From an uncultured bacterium (GTDB lineage: Bacteria > Fidelibacterota > UBA2242), in contig CAZPRY010000007.1 in the NCBI GenBank assembly GCA_964589175.1, positions 52,938 through 116,937 of the forward strand: DNA of 64,000 bases. Direction: 5' to 3'. The notes beneath the pieces are model-generated. The model was not told the origin of the DNA, made no database searches, and worked only from the letters and a program-made list of their open reading frames with translations. The stretch's first letter is position 1; the number at the start of each line of letters is the position of its first letter. The translations under genes and the position numbers were made by a program. This document shows, in pieces, positions 3,933 to 39,268 of this stretch.

Positions 3933-4529
3933 TTATTGCGCTTCCGTCCGGTAAAGCTGATGTTCGCAAATATAGGCCTCTACCGCAGGGTTGACCAGGT
4001 AGCGGATCGACTCTCCGCACCGTAGTTTCTCCCTGATCCGGCTGGAGGAAATTTCGATCACCGGCGATTGTATGAATTGCACTTCCGCCAGGAATTCCGG
4101 CTGTACGCGGCCGGGATCGAAGCCGGGGCGAGGAGCCACCAGAAGTGTGACGCGTCTCAGTATTTCCTGCGGTTGACGCCACCTGTGCAACTCCATCAAA
4201 CTGTCGCTGCCGATCAGAAAATAGAAATCCTCGCGGGATAAATGATACACACGGTTGATTGCATTGATCGTATCGATGGTGTAGGAGATGTCTGCGCGGT
4301 CGGCTTCCAGCGTGGACAGTTCGAAGCGCGGATTACCGGCAATCGCCAGTCTGACCATCGCGACTCGATGCTGAATTGCGCTGCAGTCCTGAGACGACTT
4401 GTGCGGCGCCAGATATGCCGGTAAAAATAGAATTTTATCCAGTCCGAACTGATCTAATAGCGACTCCGCAATTATCGCGTGCGCAATATGGGGAGGATCG
4501 AAGGTTCCGCCGTACAGACAGAGGCTCAT
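3933..4529 (-). CDS. nadD: Nicotinate-nucleotide adenylyltransferase
   Basis: 198 aa. The N-terminus LYGGTFDPPHIAHA is the (H/T)xGH nucleotidyltransferase motif characteristic of NadD, and there is a C-terminal SSSRIR motif. Confidence 0.85.
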   Translation of the reverse strand: MSLCLYGGTFDPPHIAHAIIAESLLDQFGLDKILFLPAYLAPHKSSQDCSAIQHRVAMVRLAIAGNPRFELSTLEADRADISYTIDTINAINRVYHLSREDFYFLIGSDSLMELHRWRQPQEILRRVTLLVAPRPGFDPGRVQPEFLAEVQFIQSPVIEISSSRIREKLRCGESIRYLVNPAVEAYICEHQLYRTEAQ

Positions 4530-5329
4530 TGGGGAGACTTCTTTTCCTGTTCCTTCTGAATTTTCTTCTGCTCTTTATCCAGGGCTCGTTTCAGGACCAT
4601 CAGTTTGTCTTTCCTGGCCGTCAAATCTTCTTTCGCCTGCAGATCGCCGAGCAGAGTTTCATACTCCTCAAATTTCCGCAGATGGATCAGACACAGCGCC
4701 TTGTCGAGTTTGGCAGGTATCGCCCATTGGCTGTCGTAATACGTGGCGAGTAAATTATCGAAGTAAATAATAGCCGATTCCCATTCCTGAAGTTTGATAT
4801 AGAGAACCCCGGATTCATAATTTTTGCGCGCCAGTTTATTGCGTATATCCCGAATCTTCTCTTCAACCTCGCTGCGATATTTACTCTGCGGGTAAGAATC
4901 CAGAAATTCCTGGAGTGACTGCAAGGCCCGCTCGGTATTGGTCTGATCGCGTTGATACCGGGGAGATAAATTATAGTAACAACGGGCTATTTTATAGGCT
5001 CCGTCTTCCGCCAGCGGGCTGTAGCTGTAGCGCTCCGTCAGGGCCTGGTATTCGGAAATCGCCAGTAAATAGTCTTTTTTCTGAAAGTAACTCTCGCCGA
5101 CATAATATTGAGCGTCATCCGCCAACTCGCCGCCGGGGCTGTTCAGCAGCACCAGGTTGAAACTCTGGATGGCCTTCTCCCAGCGCTTCTTCTTGAATTG
5201 CTCCATGCCCTGTTCATAGTATTTCGTGTAGTCGCTGAAGGCCTGGGGCTTGACATCCGCACAGCGCATGAAAATCAGGGCAAACAGACCTGCCAGTAAA
5301 CCCGTAAGATACCGCTTCATTTTTATCAT
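4526..5329 (-). CDS. TPR-repeat outer-membrane assembly factor BamD-like protein (YfiO family)
   Basis: Signal peptide followed by TPR-like repeats with a BamD-like pattern (YYVGESYF...AISEYQALTERY...YPQSKY...). It ends in a K/E-rich tail. It overlaps the nadD start by 4 nt. Confidence 0.6.
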   Translation of the reverse strand: MIKMKRYLTGLLAGLFALIFMRCADVKPQAFSDYTKYYEQGMEQFKKKRWEKAIQSFNLVLLNSPGGELADDAQYYVGESYFQKKDYLLAISEYQALTERYSYSPLAEDGAYKIARCYYNLSPRYQRDQTNTERALQSLQEFLDSYPQSKYRSEVEEKIRDIRNKLARKNYESGVLYIKLQEWESAIIYFDNLLATYYDSQWAIPAKLDKALCLIHLRKFEEYETLLGDLQAKEDLTARKDKLMVLKRALDKEQKKIQKEQEKKSPQ

Positions 5330-5382: not shown

Positions 5383-6309
5383 CTAGAACGCCAGATTGAG
5401 GCTGACACCGCGCAACGGATTACGCTGGCGATAGTCAGTGATCAGGCCGAGGTGCCAGCTGACCTGGGTTTCCCCTTTAAATTTTTTGGCCGCGATATTA
5501 GCGTCGAAGGCGCTGATCAGGTGGTTAAACATCAGGACAGTCACAAAATTGGTCGCCATCTTGAGCGCATCGTTTGATTCTTTACGCTGGGTCAAATAAT
5601 CATTCCGGTAATCATTCATATATAACGTATCTGGTTCGGTTCCATTATTCTTTACTCCGAAATCATCCCAGCCACCGGCAAACTGGTCGTATTTCCCGAT
5701 ATTCTCGTAAAAATCGCGAGTCTTGATTGGGGTGATATCATCGCTACCGCTCGCCATCAGGGAAACCCAGCCCGGAACATACTTATTCAGCGTGTCCGCC
5801 TGGGCCATATATTCCTGTTCGTTGTATTCGACGTAGATGTGATGCGATCCGAAATTCTTACTATGGTATCCGCTCGGGCCGGACATGGTGTTCCAGAGAT
5901 TATTGGCCCATTCCTGGATGTTCCAGTGGGTGTCGGCGTAATCCTCAAAATCTCCTTCCAGGCGCAGACCGCGGGATTTGCTACCGTACCACAGGCCCCA
6001 GCCGGCGGCCTCAATCCCGGCATAGATCAAGGCTCTCCACTTGGCCCCGGCGTACAATTGGCCGGTACCCGGAACTACGGCTGAGAACAGAAAGGCCCGT
6101 CCGGGAGATTTGATATATTGAAAAGTGGTATCAACACCCTCATCGGATTCCCCGTACTTCAGCTGGTTTATGAATTGGCCGCGCAGGACCGAATTCTGAT
6201 CCTGATTTGCGGGGAGTTCCTGGGCCCCCGCCAAGCTCAGGATCAAGGCAACTGTCAAAACAATCAGGGTTAGTATTCTGCTGCTCATCTTACCTCCATC
6301 AAAGTCCAA
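5383..6309 (-). CDS. Secreted hypothetical protein with a conserved SAVVPGTGQLYAG motif (DUF5683-like)
   Basis: An N-terminal signal/TM segment is followed by FLFSAVVPGTGQLYAGAKWRALIYAGIE, which resembles the DUF5683 core. The alternative start at 6288 (MSSRIL) avoids an 11-nt overlap with the upstream gene. Confidence 0.55.
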   Translation of the reverse strand: MDFDGGKMSSRILTLIVLTVALILSLAGAQELPANQDQNSVLRGQFINQLKYGESDEGVDTTFQYIKSPGRAFLFSAVVPGTGQLYAGAKWRALIYAGIEAAGWGLWYGSKSRGLRLEGDFEDYADTHWNIQEWANNLWNTMSGPSGYHSKNFGSHHIYVEYNEQEYMAQADTLNKYVPGWVSLMASGSDDITPIKTRDFYENIGKYDQFAGGWDDFGVKNNGTEPDTLYMNDYRNDYLTQRKESNDALKMATNFVTVLMFNHLISAFDANIAAKKFKGETQVSWHLGLITDYRQRNPLRGVSLNLAF

Positions 6310-9300
6310 ATAAAATTGTTATGTATGTTCGCCATTCACCGCCATAAATATGCGCCTCATCGCGCCTGTCGATAAGCTCAAATTTATCCAATCCGTAGAC
6401 AAAGTCTAGACTTATTGCGGTCGGATAGGCATAAAATGAAAATCCGCTGAAACGCAACTGCATGCCCACGTCGGTTTTAAAATCCGCCGTGATCTGTTGA
6501 ATAACATCCGCCGGGCTATTCGCAAATTTCTTCCAGCCCAGTTGGGGATAGTCCTCAACCTGGCTCCAGGCATTACCGGTCTCCACGTACGCGCCGACAA
6601 ATGCGTTCTGCAGATTGAATACGCCCAATTGCATGTTTTTTTCAACAAACAGCGGGTGGCGCACGGTGTAATGAAAGGTCAACAGATTACGCCCTTCAAT
6701 GCTGTAAAACGGGTAGCCTCTCAGCCCCGGCAGCCCTCCGGCGAAGAAATGGAAAAACGAATCCACATCCGGCATGCTGATCCAACCCAAACGCCATTTG
6801 AAATTTCCGACCATCTTTTTTAGAACGGGATACTTATGGTAAACGTTCCCTTCATGATCGATTTTCCAGTAATAATTTTTACGAAAAATTTCCCTCAGGG
6901 TGCCGAAATCCTCATAAATCCCGAATTCCTGCATGAAATTGTCGAAGTTGCGCGAAATGTTGGTGGTCATTTCGAAGCCGTTATCGGGATTCGTCTCGGA
7001 GTTGACATTGGGCAGGATTTTGCGCTTGTTCCAGCTCAGTTTCAGATAACTACCGCGATAGTAATCATAGGTAAATCCGGAACTGTAAATTCCCTGAGAT
7101 TCGATCCTCTCATCCGTGCTGGTCCGGTAACGGGCCAGCCCTGCGTCGAGACGCAGGTGGTTGAAACCGTCGATCGGGCGCGATACACCGAAGATGGCCT
7201 CGGTCAGGTAGAAGGTATAATCGGTATTGATCGGGTAACCCTTCCAGGTCAGCTTCTGGTTGAGAATATTGCGGCTGATATTGTAAAATTCGAGGAAAAA
7301 GGTGGGCTCCCACTGATGATACTCGAGCGTTACGAATAGATCACGGTCGCCGATCCGGTTCAACGAGGCCGTACCGAAAATGCTGAAGCGCTCCAGAATC
7401 TCCGAGGAATAGAAATAGAAACCCGGTTTGGCGGTACCGTAATCGATCATCAATTTGGGTAGAATGAAAATCTTGGCGAACTGGTCCCGGTACTTCTGGG
7501 GTTCGGGGAAATCCTGCTGCACCACGGCCATCATCGCCGGCTCCTGCATCGGCTCCGGAAAGTACACGGCCTCTTGCGCCGCAAGTACGGCAACCGTATC
7601 CAGCCGCGCGACTTTAAAAGCCGAATTATCGAACAGCGCAAAAACCAGCTGCCCTTGCCGGTTGACGGCCGGCATCATCGCGCCGCCGACAACATTGGTC
7701 AGCAGTTCCGTCTCCCCCGTCGCCAGTAAGCGCCGGTAGATGTTGAAAATCCCGGTCTGGTCGGAGGCGTAATACAACCATCGGCCGTCAGGGCTGTAGT
7801 AGGGATTGCGTGTATCCCAGTCGTGCCCGTCGAAAATTGTCATGGAATCCGATTCCAGGTGATACACGGAGATGTCGCGGCCGTGATTCAGGGTGTAATC
7901 GAAGGCAATCCGTTTCCCGTCCGGCGCCCAGTGGACGGAGAAGAGTTCGATACCGTCGTCAAAATGGGTCAGCTGCTTTTCTTCCCGGGATTCGAGGTCA
8001 AGCAGCACCAGGTTGGAAGTGCCGTCTTCCCCGGTGATGAACACGATTTTCTTGCCGTCGGGTGAAAGCGCGGGCAGATAAGCCCGGCGAAATTTAGTGA
8101 TCTGCTTTTCTTTTTTGGTGTGTAAATCATAGTGGTAAATATCAAAATAGACCGAGCCATGTTTATTGGGCTTGCTCTTTTTGGAATAATAAAGGTATTT
8201 GTTATCGGGTGAAAGACTGATCCGCGAATGCACTTCCGCCTTCAGCAGCCGGTCTTCGTTCGTCACCGCATTATGGACATATAACGAGGTCTGGCCGTAG
8301 TAATCACGACCTTTGTTGGAGAGATAATAAATCAGCGTGTCGGCACCCCATTCGGGATAGATCTGGGTTGTGCCATCCCCCAGAATTATTTCTCCGCTCA
8401 CCGCATGTTGCCGGATTCGTTCGGTCTTTGCGGCGTAATCTTTTTCAAGCGTGTTTTTCCAGTCCCGGTAAATTTCGTCAGCCGATACTCCGGTAGCCTT
8501 CTTCAGAGCGCTGGTAACAGAAAATTGCAGCGGTGCCGACAACAGGTCCATCATCCGCGGGCAAATTTCGGAACCGAAGCGCCCGGTCAAATATCGTACA
8601 AACGCATAGCCCTGGTTGTACACCGATTCGTTGCCGATGCCTCTTTTACCGAAGCTGCCCATTTGGTCGAGGCTCAGCAGGTGATGATTCAAAACACGGT
8701 CGCGCAGGAGCATGTCCCGGTGCGTATCCCAGAGATCGTTGGTCGATCCCGGGTACTGGAACTGCGCCACACCTTCCGCCAGCCACATCGGCATCACAAG
8801 GCCCGGCAGCGGGTAGGAGGCGATCACGCGCGGATAACCGTAAACGACATCGTCCCGCTTTTCATCCTCGTAGTCGATGACCTGCAGGTAGGCAGCCGGA
8901 ATACTGCGCGGTAATTTCATCGCCTTTTGCAGGCTGACGATATGGGCGAATTCATGCGCGATTACGTCTCTCAGCCACTGATGGTTGCCGCGCAGCAGGA
9001 AGTCCAGCGGCGTCGCCCAGAGCTCGATCTTATTGTCGTAATAATAGGTCGCGCCGTTCGAGTAATCATCATAATCCTTGACGTACAGGTGCGTCTTGGA
9101 ATCCGGTTCGAAATTGTAAAATGAAGTTATCGGACCGTAAACGGCCTCGCCGATTAGAGCCGTCTCTTTGGCGGTCCATTCCGCCCCTTCATGATAATGA
9201 ATTTTGAAGTGCGGAGTCTCGAAACTCAGCCAGTCCAATTCGGGATGATTATATCGTTCCTGAGCAAAGATTATAACCGTACCGATTAAAAGAGTCAATA

Positions 9301-9337
9301 TTGCAGATAGAATTTTCGGGAATATTTTTGCGATCAA
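6299..9337 (-). CDS. Omp85-superfamily outer-membrane protein with an N-terminal Peptidase_MA_2-like zincin domain and TolB/PD40 beta-propeller repeats, and no POTRA domains
   Basis: 1012 aa. Signal peptide; zincin motif HEFAH...WLAEGVAQF; PD40-like repeats (SPDGKKIVFI, WAPDGKRIAF, YSPDGRWLYYASD). The C-terminal barrel carries the Omp85 motif FAGGLPGLRGYPF. It is a paralog of the 25166-28276 protein. Confidence 0.7.
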   Translation of the reverse strand: MIAKIFPKILSAILTLLIGTVIIFAQERYNHPELDWLSFETPHFKIHYHEGAEWTAKETALIGEAVYGPITSFYNFEPDSKTHLYVKDYDDYSNGATYYYDNKIELWATPLDFLLRGNHQWLRDVIAHEFAHIVSLQKAMKLPRSIPAAYLQVIDYEDEKRDDVVYGYPRVIASYPLPGLVMPMWLAEGVAQFQYPGSTNDLWDTHRDMLLRDRVLNHHLLSLDQMGSFGKRGIGNESVYNQGYAFVRYLTGRFGSEICPRMMDLLSAPLQFSVTSALKKATGVSADEIYRDWKNTLEKDYAAKTERIRQHAVSGEIILGDGTTQIYPEWGADTLIYYLSNKGRDYYGQTSLYVHNAVTNEDRLLKAEVHSRISLSPDNKYLYYSKKSKPNKHGSVYFDIYHYDLHTKKEKQITKFRRAYLPALSPDGKKIVFITGEDGTSNLVLLDLESREEKQLTHFDDGIELFSVHWAPDGKRIAFDYTLNHGRDISVYHLESDSMTIFDGHDWDTRNPYYSPDGRWLYYASDQTGIFNIYRRLLATGETELLTNVVGGAMMPAVNRQGQLVFALFDNSAFKVARLDTVAVLAAQEAVYFPEPMQEPAMMAVVQQDFPEPQKYRDQFAKIFILPKLMIDYGTAKPGFYFYSSEILERFSIFGTASLNRIGDRDLFVTLEYHQWEPTFFLEFYNISRNILNQKLTWKGYPINTDYTFYLTEAIFGVSRPIDGFNHLRLDAGLARYRTSTDERIESQGIYSSGFTYDYYRGSYLKLSWNKRKILPNVNSETNPDNGFEMTTNISRNFDNFMQEFGIYEDFGTLREIFRKNYYWKIDHEGNVYHKYPVLKKMVGNFKWRLGWISMPDVDSFFHFFAGGLPGLRGYPFYSIEGRNLLTFHYTVRHPLFVEKNMQLGVFNLQNAFVGAYVETGNAWSQVEDYPQLGWKKFANSPADVIQQITADFKTDVGMQLRFSGFSFYAYPTAISLDFVYGLDKFELIDRRDEAHIYGGEWRTYITILFGL

Positions 9338-9355
9338 ATCTCAGCTCATTCTGTG

Positions 9356-12300
9356 CTATCGAATTATCATTACTTTGACGATCTTACTGATCGATTCACT
9401 GCCCTGCTGCGCTTTTACAACGGCAAAATACACGCCGCTCTGAACGCCGGAGACATCCCAGACTGTTTCGTTATAATCACCGACGAGGGGATCTTCATCC
9501 GTTAGCGCAGCCACGAAATCTCCGGCCAGATCGTAGACCTGGATCGAAACACGGCAGGATTTCCGGACGAAATAGCGGAATGCCGTTTCGTTACCTTTTA
9601 CCGGATTGGGCCAATTGAAAACACGCTGCAGATCAAGCAGTTCGTCCGGCGGCGGAGCTTGCGTATCGGATTTAATCGAGATGGAAAAATTGCGCTGGGG
9701 ATTGCTGCCGTAGGCAGTCCACATAATATCCGTCAACTGCCCCGCAGAGAGTTTACGCGCATTCAACTGAGTGCCGGCGGCATCCACAGAAACGTGTACG
9801 ATCCCGTCGGGCGAATCCAGCAATAGGACGCTGTTGCCATTGTAGACGGGAAGCGTGACGGGGAAATTCGGGAGCAGCTGGCCCTTGCGGTCGAAGGCTG
9901 CAATGCCGACACCATGAATTCCGGCGAGGAGCGTCAGCCGCCCGGCGTCATCACAGCTTGTCAGCAGGTAAGGATCGAAATAACTGTAGTTGAATTGGTT
10001 CGGAATCGACGCCGGAAAATTGGCTTCCAATACCAATCGCTCTGTGAAGACGTAGATGTGCGCCGAATCGGCCAAGGCGATCTCGATTTTGTCATCTCCG
10101 TCGATATCCGCCAGGACCGGGAACGGGTAATAATTTTTCAGTGGATAGGAAAATTGCCGGATGTTTTCCGGTTCCGCCAAAGCTGCATCCAGAACGGTGA
10201 CGATTCTATCTTCCCCGCAAAGGACCACATCCGCCACGCTGTTGTCGTCCAGCCAGCCGACCACCATATCGCCGATCATCGTCAGGTCGACATCGGTCAG
10301 CAGTTGCAGCGCCAGCGGCGCAGTTTCCAGCAGGTATAATTCCCCTTCCCCGCTAACAGCGAAAACCTGATCGGCATCCCCTGCTAGTCGCGCAATAGGC
10401 TCCGGCACGGAAATCTGTTCCGGACCGTAGCGCAAGATATTTTGGTCCGTTGCCGAATCGTAGAATGAAAAGAGCGGCTTGCCATGGAGAATCATTGCAT
10501 TGGAAGTGAGCACTGCCGCCGGGAAGGACTCCCGGTTGGCGTATTGCAGCCGATTATTGAGCAGGCGATAACGGTACAGACTCAGGCTGCCGTCAGTCTC
10601 CACAGTCGGGATATAGACGGAAATCTCGCCCGCATCGACGGCCAGCAGCGGCGTAGCAATGGTCGACAGATTGCTCGTAAAGCCAGTCGAGATCCGTTGC
10701 AGAATCATCCCCTGAGAATCGATCAGGAAAAGACTGTCCCGGTCCACCACAACGAAGTTCAAGACTCCGTCTTCCGCTCCTGTATCGAGCTGCAGCAGCC
10801 CCAGAATTTTTCGATCCTGACCCAATGGAAGGGGAAAATTTCCAAGGTTCCGATCCAGATGAATACGGAAATTCATCTGTTCGCCGGCGGGACCAATTTG
10901 ATCAATCGCGATCCCGGTGTAAGCATTGGCATAACTGCGCGACGAAGGTTGGGTGGAGTTCGTCAATCCGACACTGCGGATGGAGTCTTCCGGATATTCG
11001 GGATTCAAATCCCAGAAGCCGTCATTTCCGGCAAACCACGGATCGAAGTACCAGCCGATGTCGACATTCGCGCCGAAGAGCTGGCCTTCATAGCCAAGGT
11101 CCTGGGCGCCGTCGCCTTCCTCGAGATCAACCCCGCGGTGCTCCCGGTCGATATTGACTTTATTGGCTGAAAGATTTGCCTCGATCACCGATTCGTCGAT
11201 GTGCCAGATCAGCAATCCCGATCCGGGCAACCCGGCATCATACCGCGGCACGGACAGCAGGACTCCCGTTCGCGCCGAGAATTCCGCCTGCAGTGAATCG
11301 CGGATCAGCGGGAAAATCAGCGGCCATCTCTCCTCGCCGTTGTCTTTGTAAATTTTATACTGAATACTGTCGAGACTGACGCCCGGGCGCAGTTCGGCGT
11401 TGCGGTTCTCTACCAGGAAATATTCGTTTTCATCGATCGGAACCTTCCAGATGGATGAAGTCGTCGCCGTCTCGGCGTTTTGCAGCGTGATCTCCTGATC
11501 CGTCCCGGCCGGCAGCGGTTCTTCCCAACCCATAAAAACGCGTGACCAGGCCGTCGGAAGAGGCGGAATCAAACCGTTCAGATTGGCGGAACCCTGGTCC
11601 ATCAAACCGAACTTGCCGACGCCGGTTTCACCGGTTTCGGTATTGTACAATCCCGGCAATCCCAGATAGAAGCCGGTCATGAAGGCGAAGGTGCCGTTCA
11701 AGCCGATCTGGTAGGCACATGGTTCGTCGGCTCCGCCGAAAACTTCCTCCCAGTTCGAGAACAGCAGATGGTTTTGGGTTTCCGGTAAAATCATACCGGA
11801 TACAATCAGATCATTGCCGCCGTCGACCGGGATACCCGCAAACGACGCATTTCCCGGAGCAGCAAAGAGGGCCAGGTCACCGGTATTCAGATAAACCGAG
11901 GGAATATCGTAGGGCGTCGGATCCAAATCCAGATCGAAATCCTGCCCCACCCCGGCGTGGAATACAACCACGAGATCATAATCCGCGAACTGCAAATCCG
12001 CGTCCGCCAGTTGCACGGCTTCGTAAAATAGTTGCGCCAGGCGGGTATCCACCGAGTCTTTCACTAGAAACGGGTGGTAATATTCCATTTTACGGGGCAG
12101 CTGATAAGTCAGCGCGTCGTCGAGCGGATAGACCTCCGAACGCAGCGTATCAAGAAGCAGATGGCCTTTGGACACATGGCCGTAGTAGTTGGAAAGCGCC
12201 CGGATATGATCCTTGAAATAAGCCCTGTTATGCGGCGGTGGATCGACCACCAGGGAGGCGCAGACCGTGTCCTGGGCGGTGGTTAAAAACCGGCCGTCGC

Positions 12301-12496
12301 CGGTCGTGTAATCGCTTTCATCCGGGATAAAAGAAACCCGTAACGCACAGATTGATATGTTATTACTATGTGTCTGAACTTCTACAAGCCGCTTCCCCGT
12401 TTGCAGGGAAGGGCTAATTCGCCGCGTCGCGGAATCATTCGCCGCGAATAAAATATGGCATACCAGCAGAGCAAAAATAAGACGATGTATTTTCAT
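9356..12496 (-). CDS. Large secreted M6 (immune inhibitor A)-like pseudo-peptidase with a T9SS C-terminal sorting domain
   Basis: 1046 aa with a signal peptide. It matches the M6/InhA-conserved blocks VVFHAGVGQ and GLLIWHIDES. At the position of the catalytic HEFGHDLGLPDEYD it has FAFMTGFYLGLPGLYN, so the HExxH is lost. The C-terminal ~90 aa (NWPNPVKGNETAFRYFV...VSIQVYDLAGDFVAAL...SGVYFAVVKAQ) fits the T9SS type A CTD (TIGR04183-like). Confidence 0.65.
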   Translation of the reverse strand: MKIHRLIFALLVCHILFAANDSATRRISPSLQTGKRLVEVQTHSNNISICALRVSFIPDESDYTTGDGRFLTTAQDTVCASLVVDPPPHNRAYFKDHIRALSNYYGHVSKGHLLLDTLRSEVYPLDDALTYQLPRKMEYYHPFLVKDSVDTRLAQLFYEAVQLADADLQFADYDLVVVFHAGVGQDFDLDLDPTPYDIPSVYLNTGDLALFAAPGNASFAGIPVDGGNDLIVSGMILPETQNHLLFSNWEEVFGGADEPCAYQIGLNGTFAFMTGFYLGLPGLYNTETGETGVGKFGLMDQGSANLNGLIPPLPTAWSRVFMGWEEPLPAGTDQEITLQNAETATTSSIWKVPIDENEYFLVENRNAELRPGVSLDSIQYKIYKDNGEERWPLIFPLIRDSLQAEFSARTGVLLSVPRYDAGLPGSGLLIWHIDESVIEANLSANKVNIDREHRGVDLEEGDGAQDLGYEGQLFGANVDIGWYFDPWFAGNDGFWDLNPEYPEDSIRSVGLTNSTQPSSRSYANAYTGIAIDQIGPAGEQMNFRIHLDRNLGNFPLPLGQDRKILGLLQLDTGAEDGVLNFVVVDRDSLFLIDSQGMILQRISTGFTSNLSTIATPLLAVDAGEISVYIPTVETDGSLSLYRYRLLNNRLQYANRESFPAAVLTSNAMILHGKPLFSFYDSATDQNILRYGPEQISVPEPIARLAGDADQVFAVSGEGELYLLETAPLALQLLTDVDLTMIGDMVVGWLDDNSVADVVLCGEDRIVTVLDAALAEPENIRQFSYPLKNYYPFPVLADIDGDDKIEIALADSAHIYVFTERLVLEANFPASIPNQFNYSYFDPYLLTSCDDAGRLTLLAGIHGVGIAAFDRKGQLLPNFPVTLPVYNGNSVLLLDSPDGIVHVSVDAAGTQLNARKLSAGQLTDIMWTAYGSNPQRNFSISIKSDTQAPPPDELLDLQRVFNWPNPVKGNETAFRYFVRKSCRVSIQVYDLAGDFVAALTDEDPLVGDYNETVWDVSGVQSGVYFAVVKAQQGSESISKIVKVMIIR

Positions 12497-12563
12497 TTTG
12501 TGACAACAATTGAAGTAAAATTATCGATATTTCACCAGATCTGAATCGGCCTCCGGATCTGCT

Positions 12564-13787
12564 CTAGAATTGAATATTCAGTGAAAACAGCATGGTATTC
12601 TGACGGGGATGCCCGGGATCGCCGGCGGTGTAACCGAAATCGAATCCCAGCCCGGCATAGCGCAAGCCCGCACCGAAGGTTGGCACCGGATACTTGTCTT
12701 TCATCAGGATCTTGCCCACTTTGTCATAGATAAATCCCAAACGCAGGGCAAACAGATTCGAATACCAGTATTCAACACCGAAATTATGCGTTAACTTTTC
12801 CAGCTCGCGGCCCAGAGAACCGTCTTTGGTGTTGCCGTCTTCGTCTTTTTCACCGAGGCCGTCCGCCTCCGAATCATGCAGCAACAGCCAGTCGTCAACC
12901 CAGGAAGTGAAAAGCCCAACATACCAATCGTCGGAATGCGCCTCTTCATAGCGACCGTCCTTGTTGTAAACGCCACCACTGAATTTATGGCCGTTTTCAT
13001 CATATCCGCCGATCTTCCCGTCGCCGTCAATGTCGCGATTAGGGTAGGAGGAGACCAATAATTTATTGATGTCGTAGGACACCGTGATTTTGTTGTAATT
13101 GCCTTTCATCGTATAAGCCAGCCCCATCTTCAGGTTGGTTGGCATCGGATCGGCCTGGGATACATCGATAAATGAAATTTTCGGTCCGATATTGGAAACC
13201 GAGGCGCCGAAAGTCAGGTTCTTCAACAGGAATTGTTTTTTCATATATCCCACATCAAAACCGAAATTCGTGGAGTAGCCCTTACCCTTTTCCTTACCGG
13301 CCAGAATATCGGTCAAATGCTGATAGATCATTTTCACACCCACGCCCACCGACGAAGTACGTGTGAGCTGGGTTCCGTATGAAGCTGTAAAAGCCATCAT
13401 GTATGAGGCAAATGTGCCGAGATAATTAGCGCGTTCATCCATGGCCACCTGCTCACCCAGGTTCATAATTGTGATATTACCGCCGATGGTGCCGATATCC
13501 CGGAAGAAAAAATGGCCGCCCAGGAAATCGTAGTAGATATCCGAGGCCAGGTTCGGCAGCCAGTTGGTGTGCATCAGGGCCGCTTCGCGTCCCCGTAAAA
13601 AGCCCAATCCGGCCGGATTCCAGTAGCTGGCATAGGCATCATCGGCAATGGCGACACCCGATTCACCCATCCCGCCTGAGCGGGCTCCCGGATTAATTAA
13701 CAGCCAGATGGCCCCGGCTTCACTCTGTGCCAGGGACAAACTGAACATCGCGCATAAAACAAGTGCAAGAATCAGTATTTTTTTCAT
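12564..13787 (-). CDS. Outer-membrane beta-barrel protein, PorV/PorQ-like (T9SS-associated family)
   Basis: 407 aa. Signal peptide followed by an N-terminal GARSGGMGESGVAIADDAYASYWNPAGLG block. The rest shows an alternating hydrophobic beta-strand pattern, with a C-terminal ...LFSLNIQF ending in Phe. It lies immediately upstream of the CTD cargo gene. Confidence 0.6.
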   Translation of the reverse strand: MKKILILALVLCAMFSLSLAQSEAGAIWLLINPGARSGGMGESGVAIADDAYASYWNPAGLGFLRGREAALMHTNWLPNLASDIYYDFLGGHFFFRDIGTIGGNITIMNLGEQVAMDERANYLGTFASYMMAFTASYGTQLTRTSSVGVGVKMIYQHLTDILAGKEKGKGYSTNFGFDVGYMKKQFLLKNLTFGASVSNIGPKISFIDVSQADPMPTNLKMGLAYTMKGNYNKITVSYDINKLLVSSYPNRDIDGDGKIGGYDENGHKFSGGVYNKDGRYEEAHSDDWYVGLFTSWVDDWLLLHDSEADGLGEKDEDGNTKDGSLGRELEKLTHNFGVEYWYSNLFALRLGFIYDKVGKILMKDKYPVPTFGAGLRYAGLGFDFGYTAGDPGHPRQNTMLFSLNIQF

Positions 13788-13969
13788 TCGTTCCTCCTAG
13801 TAACAAAAAACCGAACATAGACAATATTCGGCCTTCCAACTAGTTATTTTTAACTTAGTCCAGATTTTGTTGCTATTGATTAGTCACAGGATAACAATTA
13901 TTTTCGGCAAACTCCACTTAACCGGTGAAATCTAAGCGTATTCATATCAAGAATCAAGCCTAATTCGAT

Positions 13970-14134
13970 CTAAAAACCTTCGGCCTCTTCGATCAACATG
14001 ATCGGGATATCATCCTGAATATCATATCGCAAGTGGCAGGCAAGGCAGCTTAACTTTTGATTCTCCGGATCGTAATCCAGATCGCCCTTGCACCGGGGAC
14101 AGACCAATATTTCCAATAATTCTTTGGACAGCAT
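13970..14134 (-). CDS. Trm112 family protein (UPF0434 zinc-ribbon, 54 aa)
   Basis: Translated by hand as MLSKELLEILVCPRCKGDLDYDPENQKLSCLACHLRYDIQDDIPIMLIEEAEGF. It has the canonical Trm112/YcaR CPxC...C pattern. It is below the 60-aa cutoff of the ORF track. Confidence 0.65.
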   Translation of the reverse strand: MLSKELLEILVCPRCKGDLDYDPENQKLSCLACHLRYDIQDDIPIMLIEEAEGF

Positions 14135-17794: not shown

Positions 17795-19000
17795 TTAACG
17801 TCTTTTAAATTGTTTAAACCACAATTCACCCGTTGTAACCCCCACGTGCAACGAGATAAGGTTTTCGTTTCCGAATTGACTGCTGAATCCATCCCGGCGG
17901 GCTGCAATCAGAGCAATGTCCAAACGATTCAGACCTCCATAAAAGGGAATCCCTAATCCGACGGACACGCCGGTTTCTTTCAGGGGATCGGACTGGGAGA
18001 ATATCTCCGTCTTCTGATACAAACCAGCCCTGTAAGATAATTTTTGCAGCGCCTTCCTGTCTTTCCGAGGGGATGGACTCTTCTCGATTCCGATACCAAT
18101 CACATATGCATTTTGGGCATCCACCGGCTCATTCAGGTAGAACTCCTGAAACATGGAACCGGGCGCCGTATAATAACGGAAATCCGCCACAACAAGCAAG
18201 TCGTGCGGCAGTAGCCGGGCGCAGCCCAGGGAAAATGTCGAGGGATAATCCAGAGACCGGTTTTCCTGGGTACTGTCCGGACCGTACTGATAATCCAACA
18301 GAAAATCATATTGGAAATTAATATTCTGATCCCAGTAGGCCGCAATGGTCGTTTTTTGTGGGCGATCCGTCCAGGCCAGTCCAAGGCCGGTTTGCACTCC
18401 CCGCAGGTTATAGCGTCTCTGCTGGGAGATATCGATATCGTCGTCCTGCATGAGATCCACGTCATGCGTTGTGGCGATGTTGCCGTAGAAAAACCTGCCT
18501 ACGAGGCCCAGGCTCAGGTTCGGGGACAGTTTATAGCCGAATCCCGTGTAAAGTTCGGAAATTCCACCAACCGTCTTCTTGGTCGATTGATAGGTATATA
18601 CCGTATCCGCATATGGCGCGTCACCGGTATAAATTTGCTCACTCGACATGCGTGTTACCGGGCGCATTCCCATGGCAAAGCCCAACTTCTTTCCAATCGG
18701 CATTTTAAAAGCAAAGCCCATGAAACGGGTCATCGATCCCGTATAGTCCCGCTCGGCGGCATTGACAAACTGGGTGTTCAACTGCCCCTGCATGGAGGTT
18801 GTCAGAAAACCGTGCCACAATGCCGGGCCCAGGGTATTCAGACCGATCGAGTCGCGCGCGGCGCTTCCCGAAAAGCCCATTCCGATATTACGTACCGGAA
18901 CCGAAGGGGAACCCATTCCGAATCCGTACGACGAGTAGATCGAATTCTGAGAAAACAGAAAACCGGTGATCAGGATAACGGCAAGGACAATTTTACGCAT
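17795..19000 (-). CDS. Outer-membrane beta-barrel protein, a second PorV/PorQ-like paralog
   Basis: 401 aa. Signal peptide followed by an N-terminal GFGMGSPSVPVRNIGMGFSGSAARDSIGLNTLGPALW block resembling the 12564-13787 protein. The alternating beta-strand composition is the same. Confidence 0.5.
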   Translation of the reverse strand: MRKIVLAVILITGFLFSQNSIYSSYGFGMGSPSVPVRNIGMGFSGSAARDSIGLNTLGPALWHGFLTTSMQGQLNTQFVNAAERDYTGSMTRFMGFAFKMPIGKKLGFAMGMRPVTRMSSEQIYTGDAPYADTVYTYQSTKKTVGGISELYTGFGYKLSPNLSLGLVGRFFYGNIATTHDVDLMQDDDIDISQQRRYNLRGVQTGLGLAWTDRPQKTTIAAYWDQNINFQYDFLLDYQYGPDSTQENRSLDYPSTFSLGCARLLPHDLLVVADFRYYTAPGSMFQEFYLNEPVDAQNAYVIGIGIEKSPSPRKDRKALQKLSYRAGLYQKTEIFSQSDPLKETGVSVGLGIPFYGGLNRLDIALIAARRDGFSSQFGNENLISLHVGVTTGELWFKQFKRR

Positions 19001-19001
19001 G

Positions 19002-20264
19002 CTAATTCGTCTCTTTAATGGTAATTACTTGCAGATAGGGCGCCCGGGCCGTGTCCGTTTGGGCGGACGCATACAGACTCAGAACCGACAGATCCAGGGT
19101 CGAAGGTGACGACCAGAGCAGGAATCCAAAATTCTTCTGTTCGGTACTCATATATTGCTGAACCGTATAACTGATCTTGAAAATCGCCTCACCATCGCCG
19201 GGCTTCAGCGAACAGGTGGCGATATAATCGCTCGTACTTGTCGTCAACGCCTCATCGTACCATTCGGTCGAATCCAGCTGCGTCAGGTATAGGTAAAAAT
19301 TCTCGTTGTAATTGAAGGTCTGCGTTGTATCCACTTTAAGGTGAAGGATGGCTTCTCCGACGATTTCGTTTTTATCCGTGAGCGCATCCGTGAGATCGAT
19401 TTTTAGAAAGGAACGGTAAGCCTGCCCCTTGCTGACATAGCTATGGCCGGGGTCCGGTGCAATGTCAAAGAAGCGTATTACGGAAATATCTTCCGAAGCA
19501 TAGGTCGTCGTGGAGACCGTATCGCCCTCATAAAAGAAATCCGCGATCAGCGCCGGCGCATAGTAGGAATTTTCGGCGGAGGTAAAGGCCTGCATCAGCG
19601 GTTCGGTCGTATCCGCAGCCTGCAGCAACAAGCCGTAATTATACAGGGAATCGCCATTATACCAGTCATCGTACCAGCCCCGGAAAACAGAATTCGGGAT
19701 TTCAATTTCGATGGAATCATTATTAGAGTAGGCAAAAGTACCGAGCAGTTCCCGATCAAAACCCTCGAGTGACCAGGTGTCCGGAAAAGTATCCTGCGCC
19801 CAGTTGACATGACTATCGGAAGAGAGCAGGTATACCGCAATTTCGTGGTTGTGGACATTCAGCGAATCGTAAGGCAATTCCGATTCGGTGCGAATCACAA
19901 AAATGGAACTTATCAGCGAATCCACCAGGCTACTCAATCCCGTGAAATCGTTAAAACGGATCAGCGCATAAGCCGACGAATGTTCATCTCTGCCGGCCAG
20001 CAGCCGCAGACTCGACTTCAGTTTGGGGGTCAATATCTGAGTTGAATCGACGATGTGATCGGCTTCAATCCTGACGTCCGAAAACAAAAGGGGGGCGGTA
20101 TTGGTCTCCTCATACGGTATTTGTTCCGAACAGGAGGGCATTAGAGACAGAGCCGCGAACGCAATCACCAGGGCACCACGTACGATTCGGTTTCTATTTT
20201 CGGATTGAAGCAGCTCCCGACTGCCGCCGGATTTATATACTCTCGATAATCTTAATAATTTCAT
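19002..20264 (-). CDS. Hypothetical lipoprotein
   Basis: Signal peptide with a possible lipobox (LSLMPSC). The protein is acidic, Ser/Thr/Tyr-rich and likely periplasmic or surface-exposed. It is tightly packed in an operon with the flanking genes. Confidence 0.55.
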   Translation of the reverse strand: MKLLRLSRVYKSGGSRELLQSENRNRIVRGALVIAFAALSLMPSCSEQIPYEETNTAPLLFSDVRIEADHIVDSTQILTPKLKSSLRLLAGRDEHSSAYALIRFNDFTGLSSLVDSLISSIFVIRTESELPYDSLNVHNHEIAVYLLSSDSHVNWAQDTFPDTWSLEGFDRELLGTFAYSNNDSIEIEIPNSVFRGWYDDWYNGDSLYNYGLLLQAADTTEPLMQAFTSAENSYYAPALIADFFYEGDTVSTTTYASEDISVIRFFDIAPDPGHSYVSKGQAYRSFLKIDLTDALTDKNEIVGEAILHLKVDTTQTFNYNENFYLYLTQLDSTEWYDEALTTSTSDYIATCSLKPGDGEAIFKISYTVQQYMSTEQKNFGFLLWSSPSTLDLSVLSLYASAQTDTARAPYLQVITIKETN

Positions 20265-23004: not shown

Positions 23005-24972
23005 ATGAGATGTTTAAAAACCAGCATTGTTTTCTTCCTAATTGCCTTGCCCCTGATCGGAATACGGGCGCAGTATGACGAGGACTGGCTCGATCGGGAG
23101 ATCCAGACCAAGCAGCGGCTTCTGCAGGACCGCCGGGCGCTGGCTAAACTGGCCGCGAGTACCAACGCCGCCGATTATGACATCGGTTATTACGGTCTCG
23201 ATCTCCATGTCAACGTCGATTCACAGACAATTGCCGGCTCCGTTACCATTCGTGGAAAATCGCGTATAGATTCTTTAAACCTTGTTGAACTGGACCTCGC
23301 CAGCGGACTGAATGTCCATGCCGTGACTGGCCAGGCTGTCTCTTATCAACACGGCAACAACATTCTGCAGATTCGGCTGCCTGAAGCGCTCTCAACAGGT
23401 GAAGGATTTGAATTCACCATCGATTATTCGGGTTCGCCTTTAACGGGCGGGTTCCAGGGTTTCAGTTTCGGTAGCTACAACGGCAGCCCGATAGTATCCA
23501 CCCTCAGTCAGCCCTATTATGCCTACGGCTGGTTTCCCTGCAAAGACCGACCCAACGACAAGGCCGATTCCGTCGATATCACCCTCACCGTCCCGGCCAA
23601 CCTGGAGGCCGTCGCGAACGGGACCTTGAAGAAAGTCGAAAATAATTCCGACGGCACGCGCACCTATTTCTGGCAGGAGCGCTACCCGATCGCCACCTAT
23701 CTGATTTCACTGGCCGTCTCGGAATATACTTCCTGGCAAGATACATACGTCTCACAGGACAGCAGCCTGACGATGCCGGTGATGTACTGGATCTATAAAG
23801 ACATGCCCTCCCCTTACACAACCGACTTGGCCTTGACCCCCTCCATGATTTCATTCTTTTCAAGTATTTGGGGCGAATATCCCTTCATCAAGGAGAAATA
23901 TGGCCAGGCACAGTTCTCCTGGGGCGGCGGCATGGAGCACCAGACCTGCGCCAGCATGGGCAGTTTTAACGAAATGCTGATCTGTCATGAACTGGCGCAT
24001 CAGTGGTGGGGCGATATGGTCACCTGCGCCAACTGGAAAAACATCTGGCTCAACGAAGGTTTTGCGCGCTATGCGGAAGCGCTCTGGCGTGAGCATATTG
24101 ACGGTAAAACGGGCTTAGAAGCATATATGCAGATCCTCAACCGGCCGCAAAGCTGGCAGAACAGCAGTGTCTATATCACCGACACAACCCGGGTCAGCGC
24201 CATCTTCAATCGCATCGTTTACGATAAAGGCGCCTGGATTCTGCACATGCTTCGCAAGATCGCAGGCAAGGAAAATTTCCGCGCGATTTTTCTGGCATAC
24301 CGCGAGCGACACTCCATGGGCGCCGCCGACACCGAAGATTTTCAGCGCGTCTGTGAAGAGGTCAGCGGCCTCGATCTTGACTATTTCTTTTCGGAGTGGG
24401 TTTACGGCCTCGGCCAGCCGCATTACCAGGTGAGCTGGCACCGGGTCCCGGCCTCCGACGAGCACTGGACTGTCAGCGTCCGAATCCAGCAGATTCAGAC
24501 CACGGCAACTTATTTCTCGATGCCGATCGAACTCTATCTGCAGACCGAAACGGGCGATACGATCATCACCGTCTGGAACAGCCGACGCCTGCAGGACCAC
24601 GAATTCCAGATCAACAGCAAACCGCTGGAATTGATTATCGATCCCGATAACTACATCCTGAAAAGCGTCGCCTATTCGACAGTCGATCCCGATCTGGTCA
24701 CAAATCCGACGGAATTCGAACTGTCCGGGGCTTACCCGAATCCGTTTAACGGCTCCACCCATTTCCGGCTCTACCTGCCCCATGACATCCTGGGGCAACT
24801 GCGCGTCTACAACCTGGCCGGTCAGCAAGTGGCCTTGATCGGGGACGGCCGGTTTCGATCGGGATATCGCACCTATCAATGGTCGCCGACGACCCAAGCA
24901 TCCGGAATTTACTTTATCCGGCTGGAATCCGACGATCAATTTCTGGAACGGAAGGTGTTGTACCTGAAATAA
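23005..24972 (+). CDS. M1 family aminopeptidase (aminopeptidase N-like) with a T9SS C-terminal sorting domain
   Basis: Signal peptide. GGMEHQ (a GxMEN variant), HELAHQWWGD, and WLNEGFARY providing the third Zn ligand. The C-terminal ~85 aa (AYPNPFNGSTHFRLYLP...LRVYNLAGQQVALI...SGIYFIRLESD...KVLYLK) is typical of a T9SS CTD. Confidence 0.85.
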   Translation: MRCLKTSIVFFLIALPLIGIRAQYDEDWLDREIQTKQRLLQDRRALAKLAASTNAADYDIGYYGLDLHVNVDSQTIAGSVTIRGKSRIDSLNLVELDLASGLNVHAVTGQAVSYQHGNNILQIRLPEALSTGEGFEFTIDYSGSPLTGGFQGFSFGSYNGSPIVSTLSQPYYAYGWFPCKDRPNDKADSVDITLTVPANLEAVANGTLKKVENNSDGTRTYFWQERYPIATYLISLAVSEYTSWQDTYVSQDSSLTMPVMYWIYKDMPSPYTTDLALTPSMISFFSSIWGEYPFIKEKYGQAQFSWGGGMEHQTCASMGSFNEMLICHELAHQWWGDMVTCANWKNIWLNEGFARYAEALWREHIDGKTGLEAYMQILNRPQSWQNSSVYITDTTRVSAIFNRIVYDKGAWILHMLRKIAGKENFRAIFLAYRERHSMGAADTEDFQRVCEEVSGLDLDYFFSEWVYGLGQPHYQVSWHRVPASDEHWTVSVRIQQIQTTATYFSMPIELYLQTETGDTIITVWNSRRLQDHEFQINSKPLELIIDPDNYILKSVAYSTVDPDLVTNPTEFELSGAYPNPFNGSTHFRLYLPHDILGQLRVYNLAGQQVALIGDGRFRSGYRTYQWSPTTQASGIYFIRLESDDQFLERKVLYLK

Positions 24973-25165
24973 ATCCCTGAACCGCTCCCGTTGAAGTAGC
25001 GTTCGAACGTTCCCTGGGGAAAATAGATGCGTATTGCACTGAAAAATAATGTAGCTTTTTATGACTTTAAGAGTCTAAATTTTGTTGTGCCTGAAATGGC
25101 AAAAAAAATGACCGTTTTTTATGAATGACAAGGAACAAAAACCACTCATCAAAGTATAGACCACT

Positions 25166-39254: not shown

Positions 39255-39268
39255 CGGCTTTCCTACGA

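What the first reader, a model, noticed from the sequence alone, without database searches (positions are those of the whole stretch)
6299..13787. Candidate outer-membrane export/processing module: PorV-like barrel, CTD cargo (M6 pseudo-protease), zincin-PD40-Omp85, DUF5683-like, BamD-like
Five co-oriented, tightly spaced genes on the minus strand: a PorV-like OMP (12564-13787), a 1046-aa T9SS-CTD protein, the Omp85 hybrid, a secreted DUF5683-like protein, and a BamD-like TPR protein (4526-5329). BamD is the obligate BamA partner in E. coli (established knowledge), and PorV shuttles CTD cargo in Bacteroidetes T9SS (established knowledge). The combination next to an Omp85 variant suggests a dedicated Bam-like/T9SS-hybrid secretion or surface-attachment unit. 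This hypothesis is inference.
Basis: inference. Interest (0 to 1): 0.85.

Follow-up and report, generated by a model that had tools for sequence, protein, structure and literature searches.

The report
PorV-linked Omp85 protease gene cassette
Four of the five flagged outer-membrane genes (a PorV barrel, a catalytically dead M6-like surface protein, a protease–propeller–Omp85 fusion and a small membrane protein) form a cassette kept together across many phyla related to Bacteroidota, which suggests an undescribed accessory of the type IX secretion system, whereas the BamD gene is only a local neighbour.

Summary
All five minus-strand genes are real and correctly identified: a PorV-family barrel, a T9SS-CTD M6-like pseudo-protease (NCBIfam NF052323), a zincin + TolB-like propeller + 16-strand Omp85 barrel with no POTRA domain, a DUF5683-like protein, and BamD.

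I compared 94 related loci, which fall into 20 clusters at 50% identity. Sources name Marinimicrobia/Fidelibacterota, Balneolota, Calditrichota, Gemmatimonadota, Latescibacterota, Krumholzibacteriaceae and Ca. Electryonea among family members.
- The Omp85 fusion is preceded by the pseudo-protease in 86 of 88 testable loci.
- The pseudo-protease is preceded by PorV in 53 of 55.
- The fusion is followed by the DUF5683-like gene in 76 of 77.
- The outer flanks change completely between lineages.
- In four loci the PorU sortase gene sits directly upstream of porV, which ties the cassette to core T9SS genes.
- BamD (with nadD) follows only in Marinimicrobia-type clusters. Most other lineages have a short DUF5683 paralog there.

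So this is a conserved four-gene, T9SS-linked cassette, not a BamD-containing Bam hybrid. The fusion's HExxH…E motif is invariant, and the M6-like protein lacks it throughout. The fusion architecture was already catalogued as "WD40-Omp85" in 2014. I found no report of its linkage to porV. Function is inferred, not shown.

The parts
12564..13787 (-). PorV-family 14-strand FadL-like outer-membrane barrel with a signal peptide; first gene of the cassette
   Evidence: NF033709 scores 256.6 bits (cutoff 90). The PorV equivalog NF033710 scores 191.6, below its cutoff of 250. PDB hit 6h3i_F PorV at 4e-26, with no BamG hit. It lies upstream of M6i in 53 of 55 testable loci.
9356..12496 (-). M6-like inactivated metalloprotease ('M6i'): signal peptide, dead M6/InhA-like domain, FG-GAP-type middle region (seen in relatives), and a T9SS type A C-terminal sorting domain at residues 962-1041
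   Evidence: NF052323 aligns over the full length at 519.6 bits, below the 600 cutoff; TIGR04183 CTD scores 30 bits. The Balneolaceae ortholog in L006 scores 1325 bits. 64 of 66 orthologs have no HExxH; the aligned motif is (F/L/M)M.GF..GLP.L(Y/W).
8402..9262 (-). Zincin (Peptidase_MA_2, gluzincin-type) domain of the 1012-aa fusion protein; HEFAH at residues 128-132 and Glu188
   Evidence: Pfam PF13485 gives 1.4e-5. H128, E129, H132 and E188 are invariant in 30 diverse homologs. HE(F/Y)xH is present in 90 of 92 orthologs.
7568..8401 (-). TolB-like (PD40) beta-propeller domain of the fusion protein
6302..7480 (-). Omp85-type 16-strand beta-barrel of the fusion protein, with no POTRA domain. The L6-like loop carries GLRGYPFY, and a conserved Phe lies 3 residues from the C-terminus (sequence ends ILFGL)
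5383..6288 (-). DUF5683-like membrane protein: signal helix, two long partly hydrophobic helices, a small mixed domain, and a C-terminal beta-hairpin ending in Phe
4526..5329 (-). BamD lipoprotein: a lineage-specific neighbour, not part of the conserved cassette
   Evidence: TIGR03302 scores 128 bits (cutoff 81.4). PDB hits are 3qky BamD at 3e-34 and F. johnsoniae BamD 9n2d_F at 5e-22. It is adjacent only in Marinimicrobia-type clusters, 51 of 73 testable loci.
13795..13850 (-). Stable hairpin followed by a U-run, just upstream of the porV ribosome-binding site. It is terminator-like and marks a probable transcription boundary before the cassette
   Evidence: Fold energy is -19.6 kcal/mol, z -5.2 against shuffles; sequence read.

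Best explanation
The region holds a conserved four-gene cassette, porV, M6i, a zincin-propeller-Omp85 fusion and a DUF5683-like gene. It is a T9SS-linked outer-membrane unit found in FCB-superphylum lineages outside the classical Bacteroidia. The housekeeping bamD and nadD genes simply lie next to it in Marinimicrobia.

Proposed working, all of it inference:
- PorV is the CTD-binding outer-membrane shuttle.
- M6i is exported by the T9SS. Like PorU and PorZ in the Porphyromonas attachment complex, it stays on the cell surface docked to PorV through its CTD. It is catalytically dead, so it acts as a binding or scaffold subunit.
- The Omp85-family protein sits in the outer membrane. In the standard Omp85 topology its active zincin and TolB-like propeller face the periplasm. 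The propeller gates access to the active site, so only unfolded chains or peptides reach it. This would make it a built-in assembly or quality-control protease for the PorV/M6i (T9SS late-stage) machinery, functionally like BepA on BAM.
- The DUF5683-like protein is its membrane partner. It may engage the barrel through its C-terminal beta-hairpin, which ends in an aromatic residue.

What is shown: gene identities, domain architecture, conserved catalytic residues and conserved linkage. What is inferred: the physical complex, the topology and the substrate.
For: - **Linkage.** Across 94 loci (20 clusters at 50% identity), M6i is directly upstream of the fusion gene in 86 of 88 testable loci, PorV is upstream of M6i in 53 of 55, and the DUF5683-like gene is downstream in 76 of 77. 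Flanking genes differ between lineages: SHMT/nrdR, a TRAP transporter, thiolase, ACCA or an fn3 protein upstream, and BamD/NadD, a short DUF5683 paralog or a PASTA protein downstream.
- **Tie to core T9SS genes.** The PorU sortase gene (NF033707, 647 bits, cutoff 420) lies immediately upstream of porV in L012, and PorU-model hits sit there in L081, L091 and L092.
- **PorV identity.** The barrel matches PorV, not BamG.
- **M6i.** It carries a type A CTD and is dead in 64 of 66 orthologs.
- **The fusion protein.** Its HExxH...E motif is invariant in 30 diverse homologs and an L6 RGY-type motif is retained. The fold is a 16-strand Omp85 barrel plus a TolB-like propeller.
- **Fixed architecture.** The barrel family is small, at 225 clusters, and almost every full-length hit is 970-1140 aa with the barrel at the C-terminus.
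- **A second pairing.** A paralog with the same architecture (25166-28276) also follows a CTD-bearing metallopeptidase, an M1 peptidase at 23005-24972, in the same window.
- **Precedent.** In P. gingivalis the T9SS genes porG and skpA share an operon with bamA (PMC12773653).
Against:
- The fusion protein lacks POTRA domains, so it may not behave like a canonical Omp85 insertase or translocase.
- The linkage breaks in a few lineages: L009 keeps only the fusion gene and the DUF5683-like gene, L011 keeps only M6i and the fusion gene, and L007 has neither PorV nor M6i upstream.
- No T9SS core genes (porK-N, sprA) were found in the window among the ORFs scanned, which were mainly the larger ones. 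Their presence in this genome is therefore assumed from the two type A CTD proteins.
- The window M6i and PorV both score below the NCBIfam equivalog cutoffs.
- A periplasmic location for the zincin is assumed from general Omp85 topology only.
Confidence: 0.5

Rival explanations
1. One reading: a dedicated Bam-like unit in which BamD partners the Omp85 variant as it partners BamA. In this view the unit inserts or assembles specific outer-membrane proteins, such as PorV or other large T9SS barrels.
For: BamD lies one gene further downstream, after the DUF5683-like gene, in all Marinimicrobia-type loci (51 loci). A BamG homolog (PDB 9n2d_B at 6e-20; NF053685 at 177 bits) and a candidate BamH lipoprotein lie 4-6 kb upstream on the same strand in this window. 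The barrel has the Omp85 fold and keeps the L6 motif.
Against: BamD is absent from the neighbourhood in every non-Marinimicrobia lineage sampled. It looks like the ordinary housekeeping BamD, being the closest match to Rhodothermus and Flavobacterium BamD and always paired with nadD. The fusion protein has no POTRA domain, and POTRA5 is the BamD-binding element in BamA. BamG is upstream only in one Marinimicrobia subgroup.
Confidence: 0.12
2. A cell-surface peptide-degrading machine for nutrition. In this view the zincin-propeller is exported through, or anchored by, its own Omp85 barrel in the manner of a type Vd (PlpD-like) autotransporter. It works with surface proteins delivered by the T9SS: M6i as a substrate-binding subunit, and the M1 aminopeptidase for the paralog. 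This would resemble tricorn protease working with its aminopeptidase factors.
For: The N-terminal part resembles M1/F3-type aminopeptidases and tricorn or TolB propellers (Heinz & Lithgow Table S3; precomputed Pfam Tricorn_N and Tricorn_2nd hits). Both paralogs in the window follow CTD-bearing metallopeptidase-type proteins. The active site is strictly conserved.
Against: No POTRA domain or passenger-type linker is recognised. The fixed order next to porV, and in some loci porU, across about seven phyla looks like machinery rather than a variable nutritional enzyme set. M6i is catalytically dead everywhere.
Confidence: 0.2
3. There is no shared function. On this view the genes are unrelated envelope genes held together by inherited gene order in compact genomes.
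For: The whole 1.3-22.8 kb stretch of the window is co-oriented and dense. Within close Marinimicrobia relatives even SHMT and nrdR stay syntenic.
Against: The four-gene core survives at 26-35% identity of the fusion protein while every flanking gene is replaced, across 20 clusters at 50% identity.
Confidence: 0.08

Closest known systems
T9SS attachment complex of Porphyromonas gingivalis (PorU-PorV and PorZ-PorQ)
   Same: Both have a PorV-family barrel encoded beside large CTD-bearing surface proteins. In four related loci porU sits directly upstream of this porV. Like PorZ, M6i is a non-catalytic, propeller-containing protein with a CTD.
   Different: M6i is an inactivated M6-like metalloprotease, not a homolog of PorZ or PorU. 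No Omp85-family or DUF5683 component is known in the Porphyromonas or Flavobacterium systems. Whether M6i keeps its CTD is unknown.
'WD40-Omp85' (WD40-like) subfamily of the Omp85/TpsB superfamily (Heinz & Lithgow 2014, PMC4104836)
   Same: The architecture is the same: an aminopeptidase-like N-terminal domain, a TolB-like propeller and an Omp85 barrel without POTRA. The 2014 survey lists examples from Rhodothermus, Caldithrix and Cloacimonas.
   Different: That survey classified the proteins only. In the passages retrieved here it makes no mention of porV, M6i or DUF5683 linkage, and none of the T9SS. No functional study turned up in the searched literature.
BepA with the BAM complex (E. coli)
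   Same: Both involve a periplasmic zinc metalloprotease with a substrate-gating or interaction domain working at an Omp85 machine. This is a functional analogy for the proposed quality-control role and rests on my own knowledge of BepA.
   Different: BepA is an M48 peptidase with TPR repeats and is a separate soluble protein. Here an MA_2-type zincin and a propeller are fused to the barrel itself. There is no homology between the two.
Type Vd autotransporter PlpD / two-partner secretion TpsB
   Same: Both have an Omp85-type barrel with an N-terminal enzyme domain (PlpD) or a large secreted protein encoded next door (TpsA/TpsB).
   Different: PlpD and TpsB have POTRA domains and this protein has none. 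M6i carries a T9SS CTD rather than a TPS domain.
Bacteroidota BAM complex (BamA-D-G-H; Liu et al. 2025, PMC12611786)
   Same: BamD lies next to the cassette, and a BamG homolog and a BamH-like lipoprotein lie upstream in this window. BamG and PorV are both FadL-type barrels.
   Different: The cassette's barrel matches PorV and not BamG. The BAM genes are not linked to the cassette outside Marinimicrobia.

Membership tests
PorV (T9SS outer-membrane shuttle) | Sequence membership in the PorV/PorQ family model (NF033709) | tested here: met
   256.6 bits against a cutoff of 90; Pfam PorV 4e-25.
PorV (T9SS outer-membrane shuttle) | Score above the PorV equivalog cutoff (NF033710, 250 bits) | tested here: not met
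   191.6 bits. The PorV next to PorU in L012 also scores only 204, so the shortfall probably reflects phylum-level divergence.
PorV (T9SS outer-membrane shuttle) | Closer to solved PorV than to other FadL-type barrels such as BamG | tested here: met
   The only PDB sequence hit is PorV 6h3i_F at 4e-26. BamG 9n2d_B is in the library but is not hit.
PorV (T9SS outer-membrane shuttle) | Binds the CTD of T9SS cargo | not testable with these tools
   This needs biochemistry or complex modelling.
NF052323 T9SS-dependent M6-like inactivated metalloprotease | Full-length match above the curated cutoff (600 bits) | tested here: not met
   519.6 bits over residues 8-1046 against model positions 5-1043 of 1043. 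The positional ortholog in Balneolaceae (L006) scores 1325 bits.
NF052323 T9SS-dependent M6-like inactivated metalloprotease | Loss of the HExxH catalytic motif together with a type A CTD | tested here: met
   There is no HExxH in the window protein or in 64 of 66 orthologs. TIGR04183 scores 30.4 bits against a cutoff of 23.
Omp85/TpsB superfamily | 16-stranded C-terminal beta-barrel with the Omp85 fold | tested here: met
Omp85/TpsB superfamily | L6 loop with a conserved (V/I/L)RG(F/Y) motif | tested here: met
   GLRGYPFY lies at residues 871-878, between strands 11 and 12. G871 is nearly invariant and Y875 invariant.
Omp85/TpsB superfamily | One or more N-terminal POTRA domains | tested here: not met
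   No POTRA hit appears in Pfam or NCBIfam. Residues 26-590 are modelled as a zincin plus a propeller. This matches the POTRA-less 'WD40-Omp85' class.
BamD | Match to the BamD model above cutoff, and a TPR lipoprotein | tested here: met
   TIGR03302 scores 128 bits against 81.4. PDB BamD hits are 3e-34 and 5e-22. The N-terminus ends ...FMRC, an atypical lipobox.
BamD as a component of this module | Conserved adjacency to the Omp85 fusion beyond one lineage | tested here: not met
   BamD is adjacent in 51 of 73 testable loci, and all 51 lie in five related Marinimicrobia-type clusters. It is absent in Balneolaceae, Ca. Electryonea and the other non-Marinimicrobia-type loci examined.
Type Vd (PlpD-like) autotransporter | N-terminal passenger followed by POTRA and an Omp85 barrel, with the passenger surface-exposed | tested here: inconclusive
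   An enzyme domain N-terminal to the barrel is present, but POTRA is absent. Surface exposure cannot be tested with these tools.

The most novel reading that the evidence does not exclude
PorV, M6i, the zincin-propeller-Omp85 fusion and the DUF5683-like protein form a physical late-stage T9SS complex that has not been described. It would be the first Omp85-family, protease-bearing component of a type IX system. In many FCB phyla outside Bacteroidia it would carry out or control cargo sorting, processing or attachment, complementing or replacing the PorU/PorZ/PorQ attachment complex.
Probability: 0.3. Interest if true: 0.8.

Novelty: new variant of a known kind. Interest (0 to 1): 0.6.

Why it matters
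T9SS components have been defined almost entirely in Porphyromonas and Flavobacterium. A cassette that travels with porV, and sometimes porU, across Fidelibacterota/Marinimicrobia, Balneolota and other FCB lineages (family members are also named from Calditrichota, Gemmatimonadota and Latescibacterota) would point to missing late-stage components. These would include an Omp85-family protein with a built-in active protease.

It would also give the orphan 'WD40-Omp85' class, the NCBIfam M6i family and DUF5683 their first functional context. The cassette occurs in cultured Rhodohalobacter (L014), so the idea can be tested by genetics and proteomics.

It also corrects the tempting BamD inference: adjacency in one phylum is not evidence of partnership.

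Tried and rejected
- **BamG/BamH identity for the PorV-like barrel and M6i.** BamG and BamH are adjacent genes in FCB phyla, so I tested this. It is rejected: the barrel hits PorV and not BamG, and the true BamG homolog is a different gene at 17795-19000.
- **Hidden BamD in other lineages.** I asked whether the 224-234-aa genes that follow the DUF5683-like gene elsewhere are diverged BamD. They are not. They have no BamD or TPR hits and are short DUF5683 paralogs.
- **Shared TPR genes.** I checked whether the TPR genes upstream of the cassette in Marinimicrobia and Balneolaceae are orthologous. Only weak repeat-level similarity was found, so I dropped this.
- **Close-relative synteny.** L001-L003 turned out to be uninformative because even SHMT and nrdR are conserved there. 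I therefore went to distant representatives.
- **Sequence searches of the barrel.** A PDB sequence search with the barrel alone found nothing, and the barrel phmmer search did not reach BamA or TamA. The Omp85 assignment rests on the fold, the L6 motif and PF01103 hits in homologs.
- **Tool limits.** The AFDB Foldseek library was unavailable.
- **Literature.** Searches for DUF5683, for Marinimicrobia with T9SS, for PorV2 and for WD40-Omp85 found no description of this cassette.

Full report
**What is in the window.**

The region lies in a long run of co-oriented minus-strand genes. The closest genome matches are Candidatus Neomarinimicrobiota (Marinimicrobia, now Fidelibacterota), at 62-66% identity for the large fusion protein.

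The five flagged genes are all real and were named essentially correctly.
- 12564-13787 is a PorV/PorQ-family barrel. NF033709 scores 256.6 bits against a cutoff of 90. The PorV equivalog scores 191.6, below its cutoff of 250. Its only solved relative by sequence is F. johnsoniae PorV at 4e-26. The BamG chain of the Flavobacterium BAM structure is in the library and is not hit.
- 9356-12496 aligns end to end with NCBIfam NF052323, 'T9SS-dependent M6-like inactivated metalloprotease', at 519.6 bits (cutoff 600). It has a type A CTD at residues 962-1041 and no HExxH.
- 6299-9337 has a Peptidase_MA_2 zincin with HEFAH and a PD40/TolB-like propeller.
- 5383-6309 is weakly DUF5683-like. Its probable start is the ATG at 6288.
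- 4526-5329 is BamD. TIGR03302 scores 128 bits against 81.4, and the best solved relative is Rhodothermus BamD at 3e-34.

nadD and lepA follow downstream. nrdR, SHMT and rpiB precede upstream.

**The fusion protein.**

An alignment-based AF2 model (pLDDT 79, pTM 0.75) shows four parts: a signal helix, a helical zincin domain, a propeller, and a 16-strand barrel over residues 624-1010. A long loop between strands 11 and 12 carries GLRGYPFY.

Across 30 diverse homologs H128, E129, H132 and E188 are invariant, and the RGY-type loop motif is retained. HE(F/Y)xH is present in 90 of 92 orthologs. The protease is therefore under strong purifying selection.

A phmmer search with the barrel alone against 1.84 billion representatives finds only 225 clusters. 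Almost every full-length hit is 970-1140 aa with the barrel at the C-terminus. The three-part architecture is fixed, and the family is small.

This architecture is not new. Heinz & Lithgow (2014, PMC4104836) defined a POTRA-less 'WD40-Omp85' subfamily. Their supplementary table lists its best structural matches as TolB and aminopeptidase or tricorn folds, with members in Rhodothermus, Caldithrix and Cloacimonas. I found no functional follow-up.

**Is the gene order conserved?**

Close relatives (L001-L003) keep everything, including SHMT and nrdR, so they say little. I therefore examined two more distant sets.
- Distant representatives of the barrel family.
- Eighty further metagenomic loci found with a broad alignment.

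I then ran an HMM-based census over all 94 loci. These form 86 clusters at 90% identity of the fusion protein and 20 clusters at 50% identity.

| Position relative to the fusion gene | Loci with the gene / testable loci | Exceptions |
|---|---|---|
| M6i directly upstream | 86 / 88 | L007, L009 |
| PorV upstream of M6i | 53 / 55 | L009, L011 |
| DUF5683-like gene directly downstream | 76 / 77 | L011 |
| Next gene is BamD (then NadD) | 51 / 73 | all 51 in five related Marinimicrobia-type clusters |
| Next gene is a short DUF5683 paralog | 15 / 73 | spread over nine other clusters |
| Next gene is neither | 7 / 73 | a PASTA protein in Balneolaceae, for example |

Further points from the census:
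- The short DUF5683 paralog is 224-234 aa in the three loci where it was first measured. It shows no BamD similarity.
- The outer flanks change completely between lineages.
- In Ca. Electryonea clarkiae (L012) the gene before porV is the PorU sortase, at 647 bits against a cutoff of 420. PorU-model hits also precede porV in L081, L091 and L092.
- The cassette is present in the cultured Balneolota isolate Rhodohalobacter barkolensis (L014). There NCBI already names the M6i gene product.
- Source names place family members in Marinimicrobia/Fidelibacterota, Balneolaceae, Gemmatimonadota, Calditrichota, Latescibacterota, Krumholzibacteriaceae and Ca. Electryonea.

**The other members.**

M6i orthologs share the dead motif (F/L/M)M.GF..GLP.L(Y/W) where M6 peptidases have HExxH..GLP.(L)Y. 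64 of 66 lack HExxH anywhere. The pseudo-enzyme state is therefore ancient and conserved.

A strong hairpin with a U-run sits just before the porV ribosome-binding site, at -19.6 kcal/mol and z -5.2. This suggests a transcript boundary at the head of the cassette.

**Interpretation.**

The BamD part is not supported. BamD is the ordinary housekeeping gene and is a neighbour only in Marinimicrobia. The fusion protein also lacks POTRA domains, and in BamA it is POTRA5 that binds BamD (established knowledge).

The Marinimicrobia window is nevertheless rich in outer-membrane biogenesis genes. A BamG homolog (9n2d_B at 6e-20; NF053685 at 177 bits) and an adjacent DNRLRE-domain lipoprotein, a candidate BamH, lie 4-6 kb upstream. 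That too is lineage-specific.

My preferred reading has four parts.
- PorV is the genuine T9SS shuttle.
- M6i is a T9SS-exported, non-catalytic surface subunit that docks on PorV, as PorU and PorZ dock on PorV and PorQ.
- The Omp85 fusion is an outer-membrane-embedded protease with a propeller-gated zincin. It probably faces the periplasm and serves assembly or quality control at this late T9SS stage, by analogy with BepA on BAM.
- The DUF5683-like protein is its membrane partner.

Only the identities, the architecture, the conserved residues and the linkage are shown. The complex, the topology and the substrate are inferred.

The main rival is a surface peptide-degrading machine built like a PlpD-type autotransporter. 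The tricorn and F3-like resemblance supports it. So does a second paralog of the fusion (25166-28276, 21% identity, same architecture), which follows a CTD-bearing active M1 aminopeptidase (23005-24972). Conserved placement next to porV and porU, and the universally dead M6i, make me prefer a machinery role.

**Limits.**

The T9SS core genes of this genome could not be examined from a 64-kb window. None was found among the ORFs scanned. No multimer modelling or model coordinates were available. The AFDB library was offline.

**Verdict.**

Each gene belongs to a known family. The conserved porV-M6i-Omp85 fusion-DUF5683 cassette appears undescribed in the literature I could search. I rate it a new variant of a known kind, of moderate to high interest, and directly testable in cultured Balneolota and possibly Rhodothermus.

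Noticed in passing
window 17795-20264 (-): The 401-aa gene at 17795-19000 is a BamG homolog (F. johnsoniae BamG 9n2d_B at 6.3e-20; NF053685 at 177 bits, below the 250 cutoff). Its upstream neighbour at 19002-20264 is a lipoprotein-like protein with a DNRLRE domain. That fits the BamG-BamH gene pair reported for FCB phyla.
   Followed up: partly
window 23005-28276 (+): A second zincin (HELVH) + PD40 propeller + Omp85-like barrel protein lies at 25166-28276 (1036 aa, 21% identical to the first, with a weak TamL hit at its C-terminus). It sits directly after an M1 aminopeptidase carrying a T9SS type A CTD at 23005-24972. I could not test whether this pairing is conserved.
   Followed up: partly
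window 13795-14134 (-): A small Trm112-like zinc-ribbon ORF lies at about 13969-14134. It is followed by a strong terminator-like hairpin at 13795-13850 (-19.6 kcal/mol, z -5.2) placed immediately before the porV ribosome-binding site. The consensus terminator scan missed it.
   Followed up: partly
L010 11954-12628; L012 12484-13188; L013 9374-10069 and 12 further loci: In non-Marinimicrobia lineages a short DUF5683 paralog follows the long DUF5683-like gene (224-234 aa in L010, L012 and L013). It occupies the slot that BamD holds in Marinimicrobia and also ends in an aromatic residue.
   Followed up: partly
window 36002-40252 (-): This is an Mla-like lipid-transport cluster, with MlaE at 36002-37189 and an MlaD-domain protein at 39269-40252. 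Between them is a 707-aa protein (37131-39254) that combines an ABC_trans_aux lipoprotein domain with DUF481 and DUF3078 barrel-like regions. It matches no NCBIfam family.
   Followed up: no
L092 3-839 (+): A truncated ORF upstream of the PorU gene gives a weak hit (71 bits) to the fusion-protein model. It is probably another PD40-type protein next to the T9SS genes.
   Followed up: no
window 30298-31890 (+): A 530-aa protein combines NHL/SGL-type propeller repeats with a transglutaminase-like core. It lies downstream of the second Omp85 paralog.
   Followed up: no
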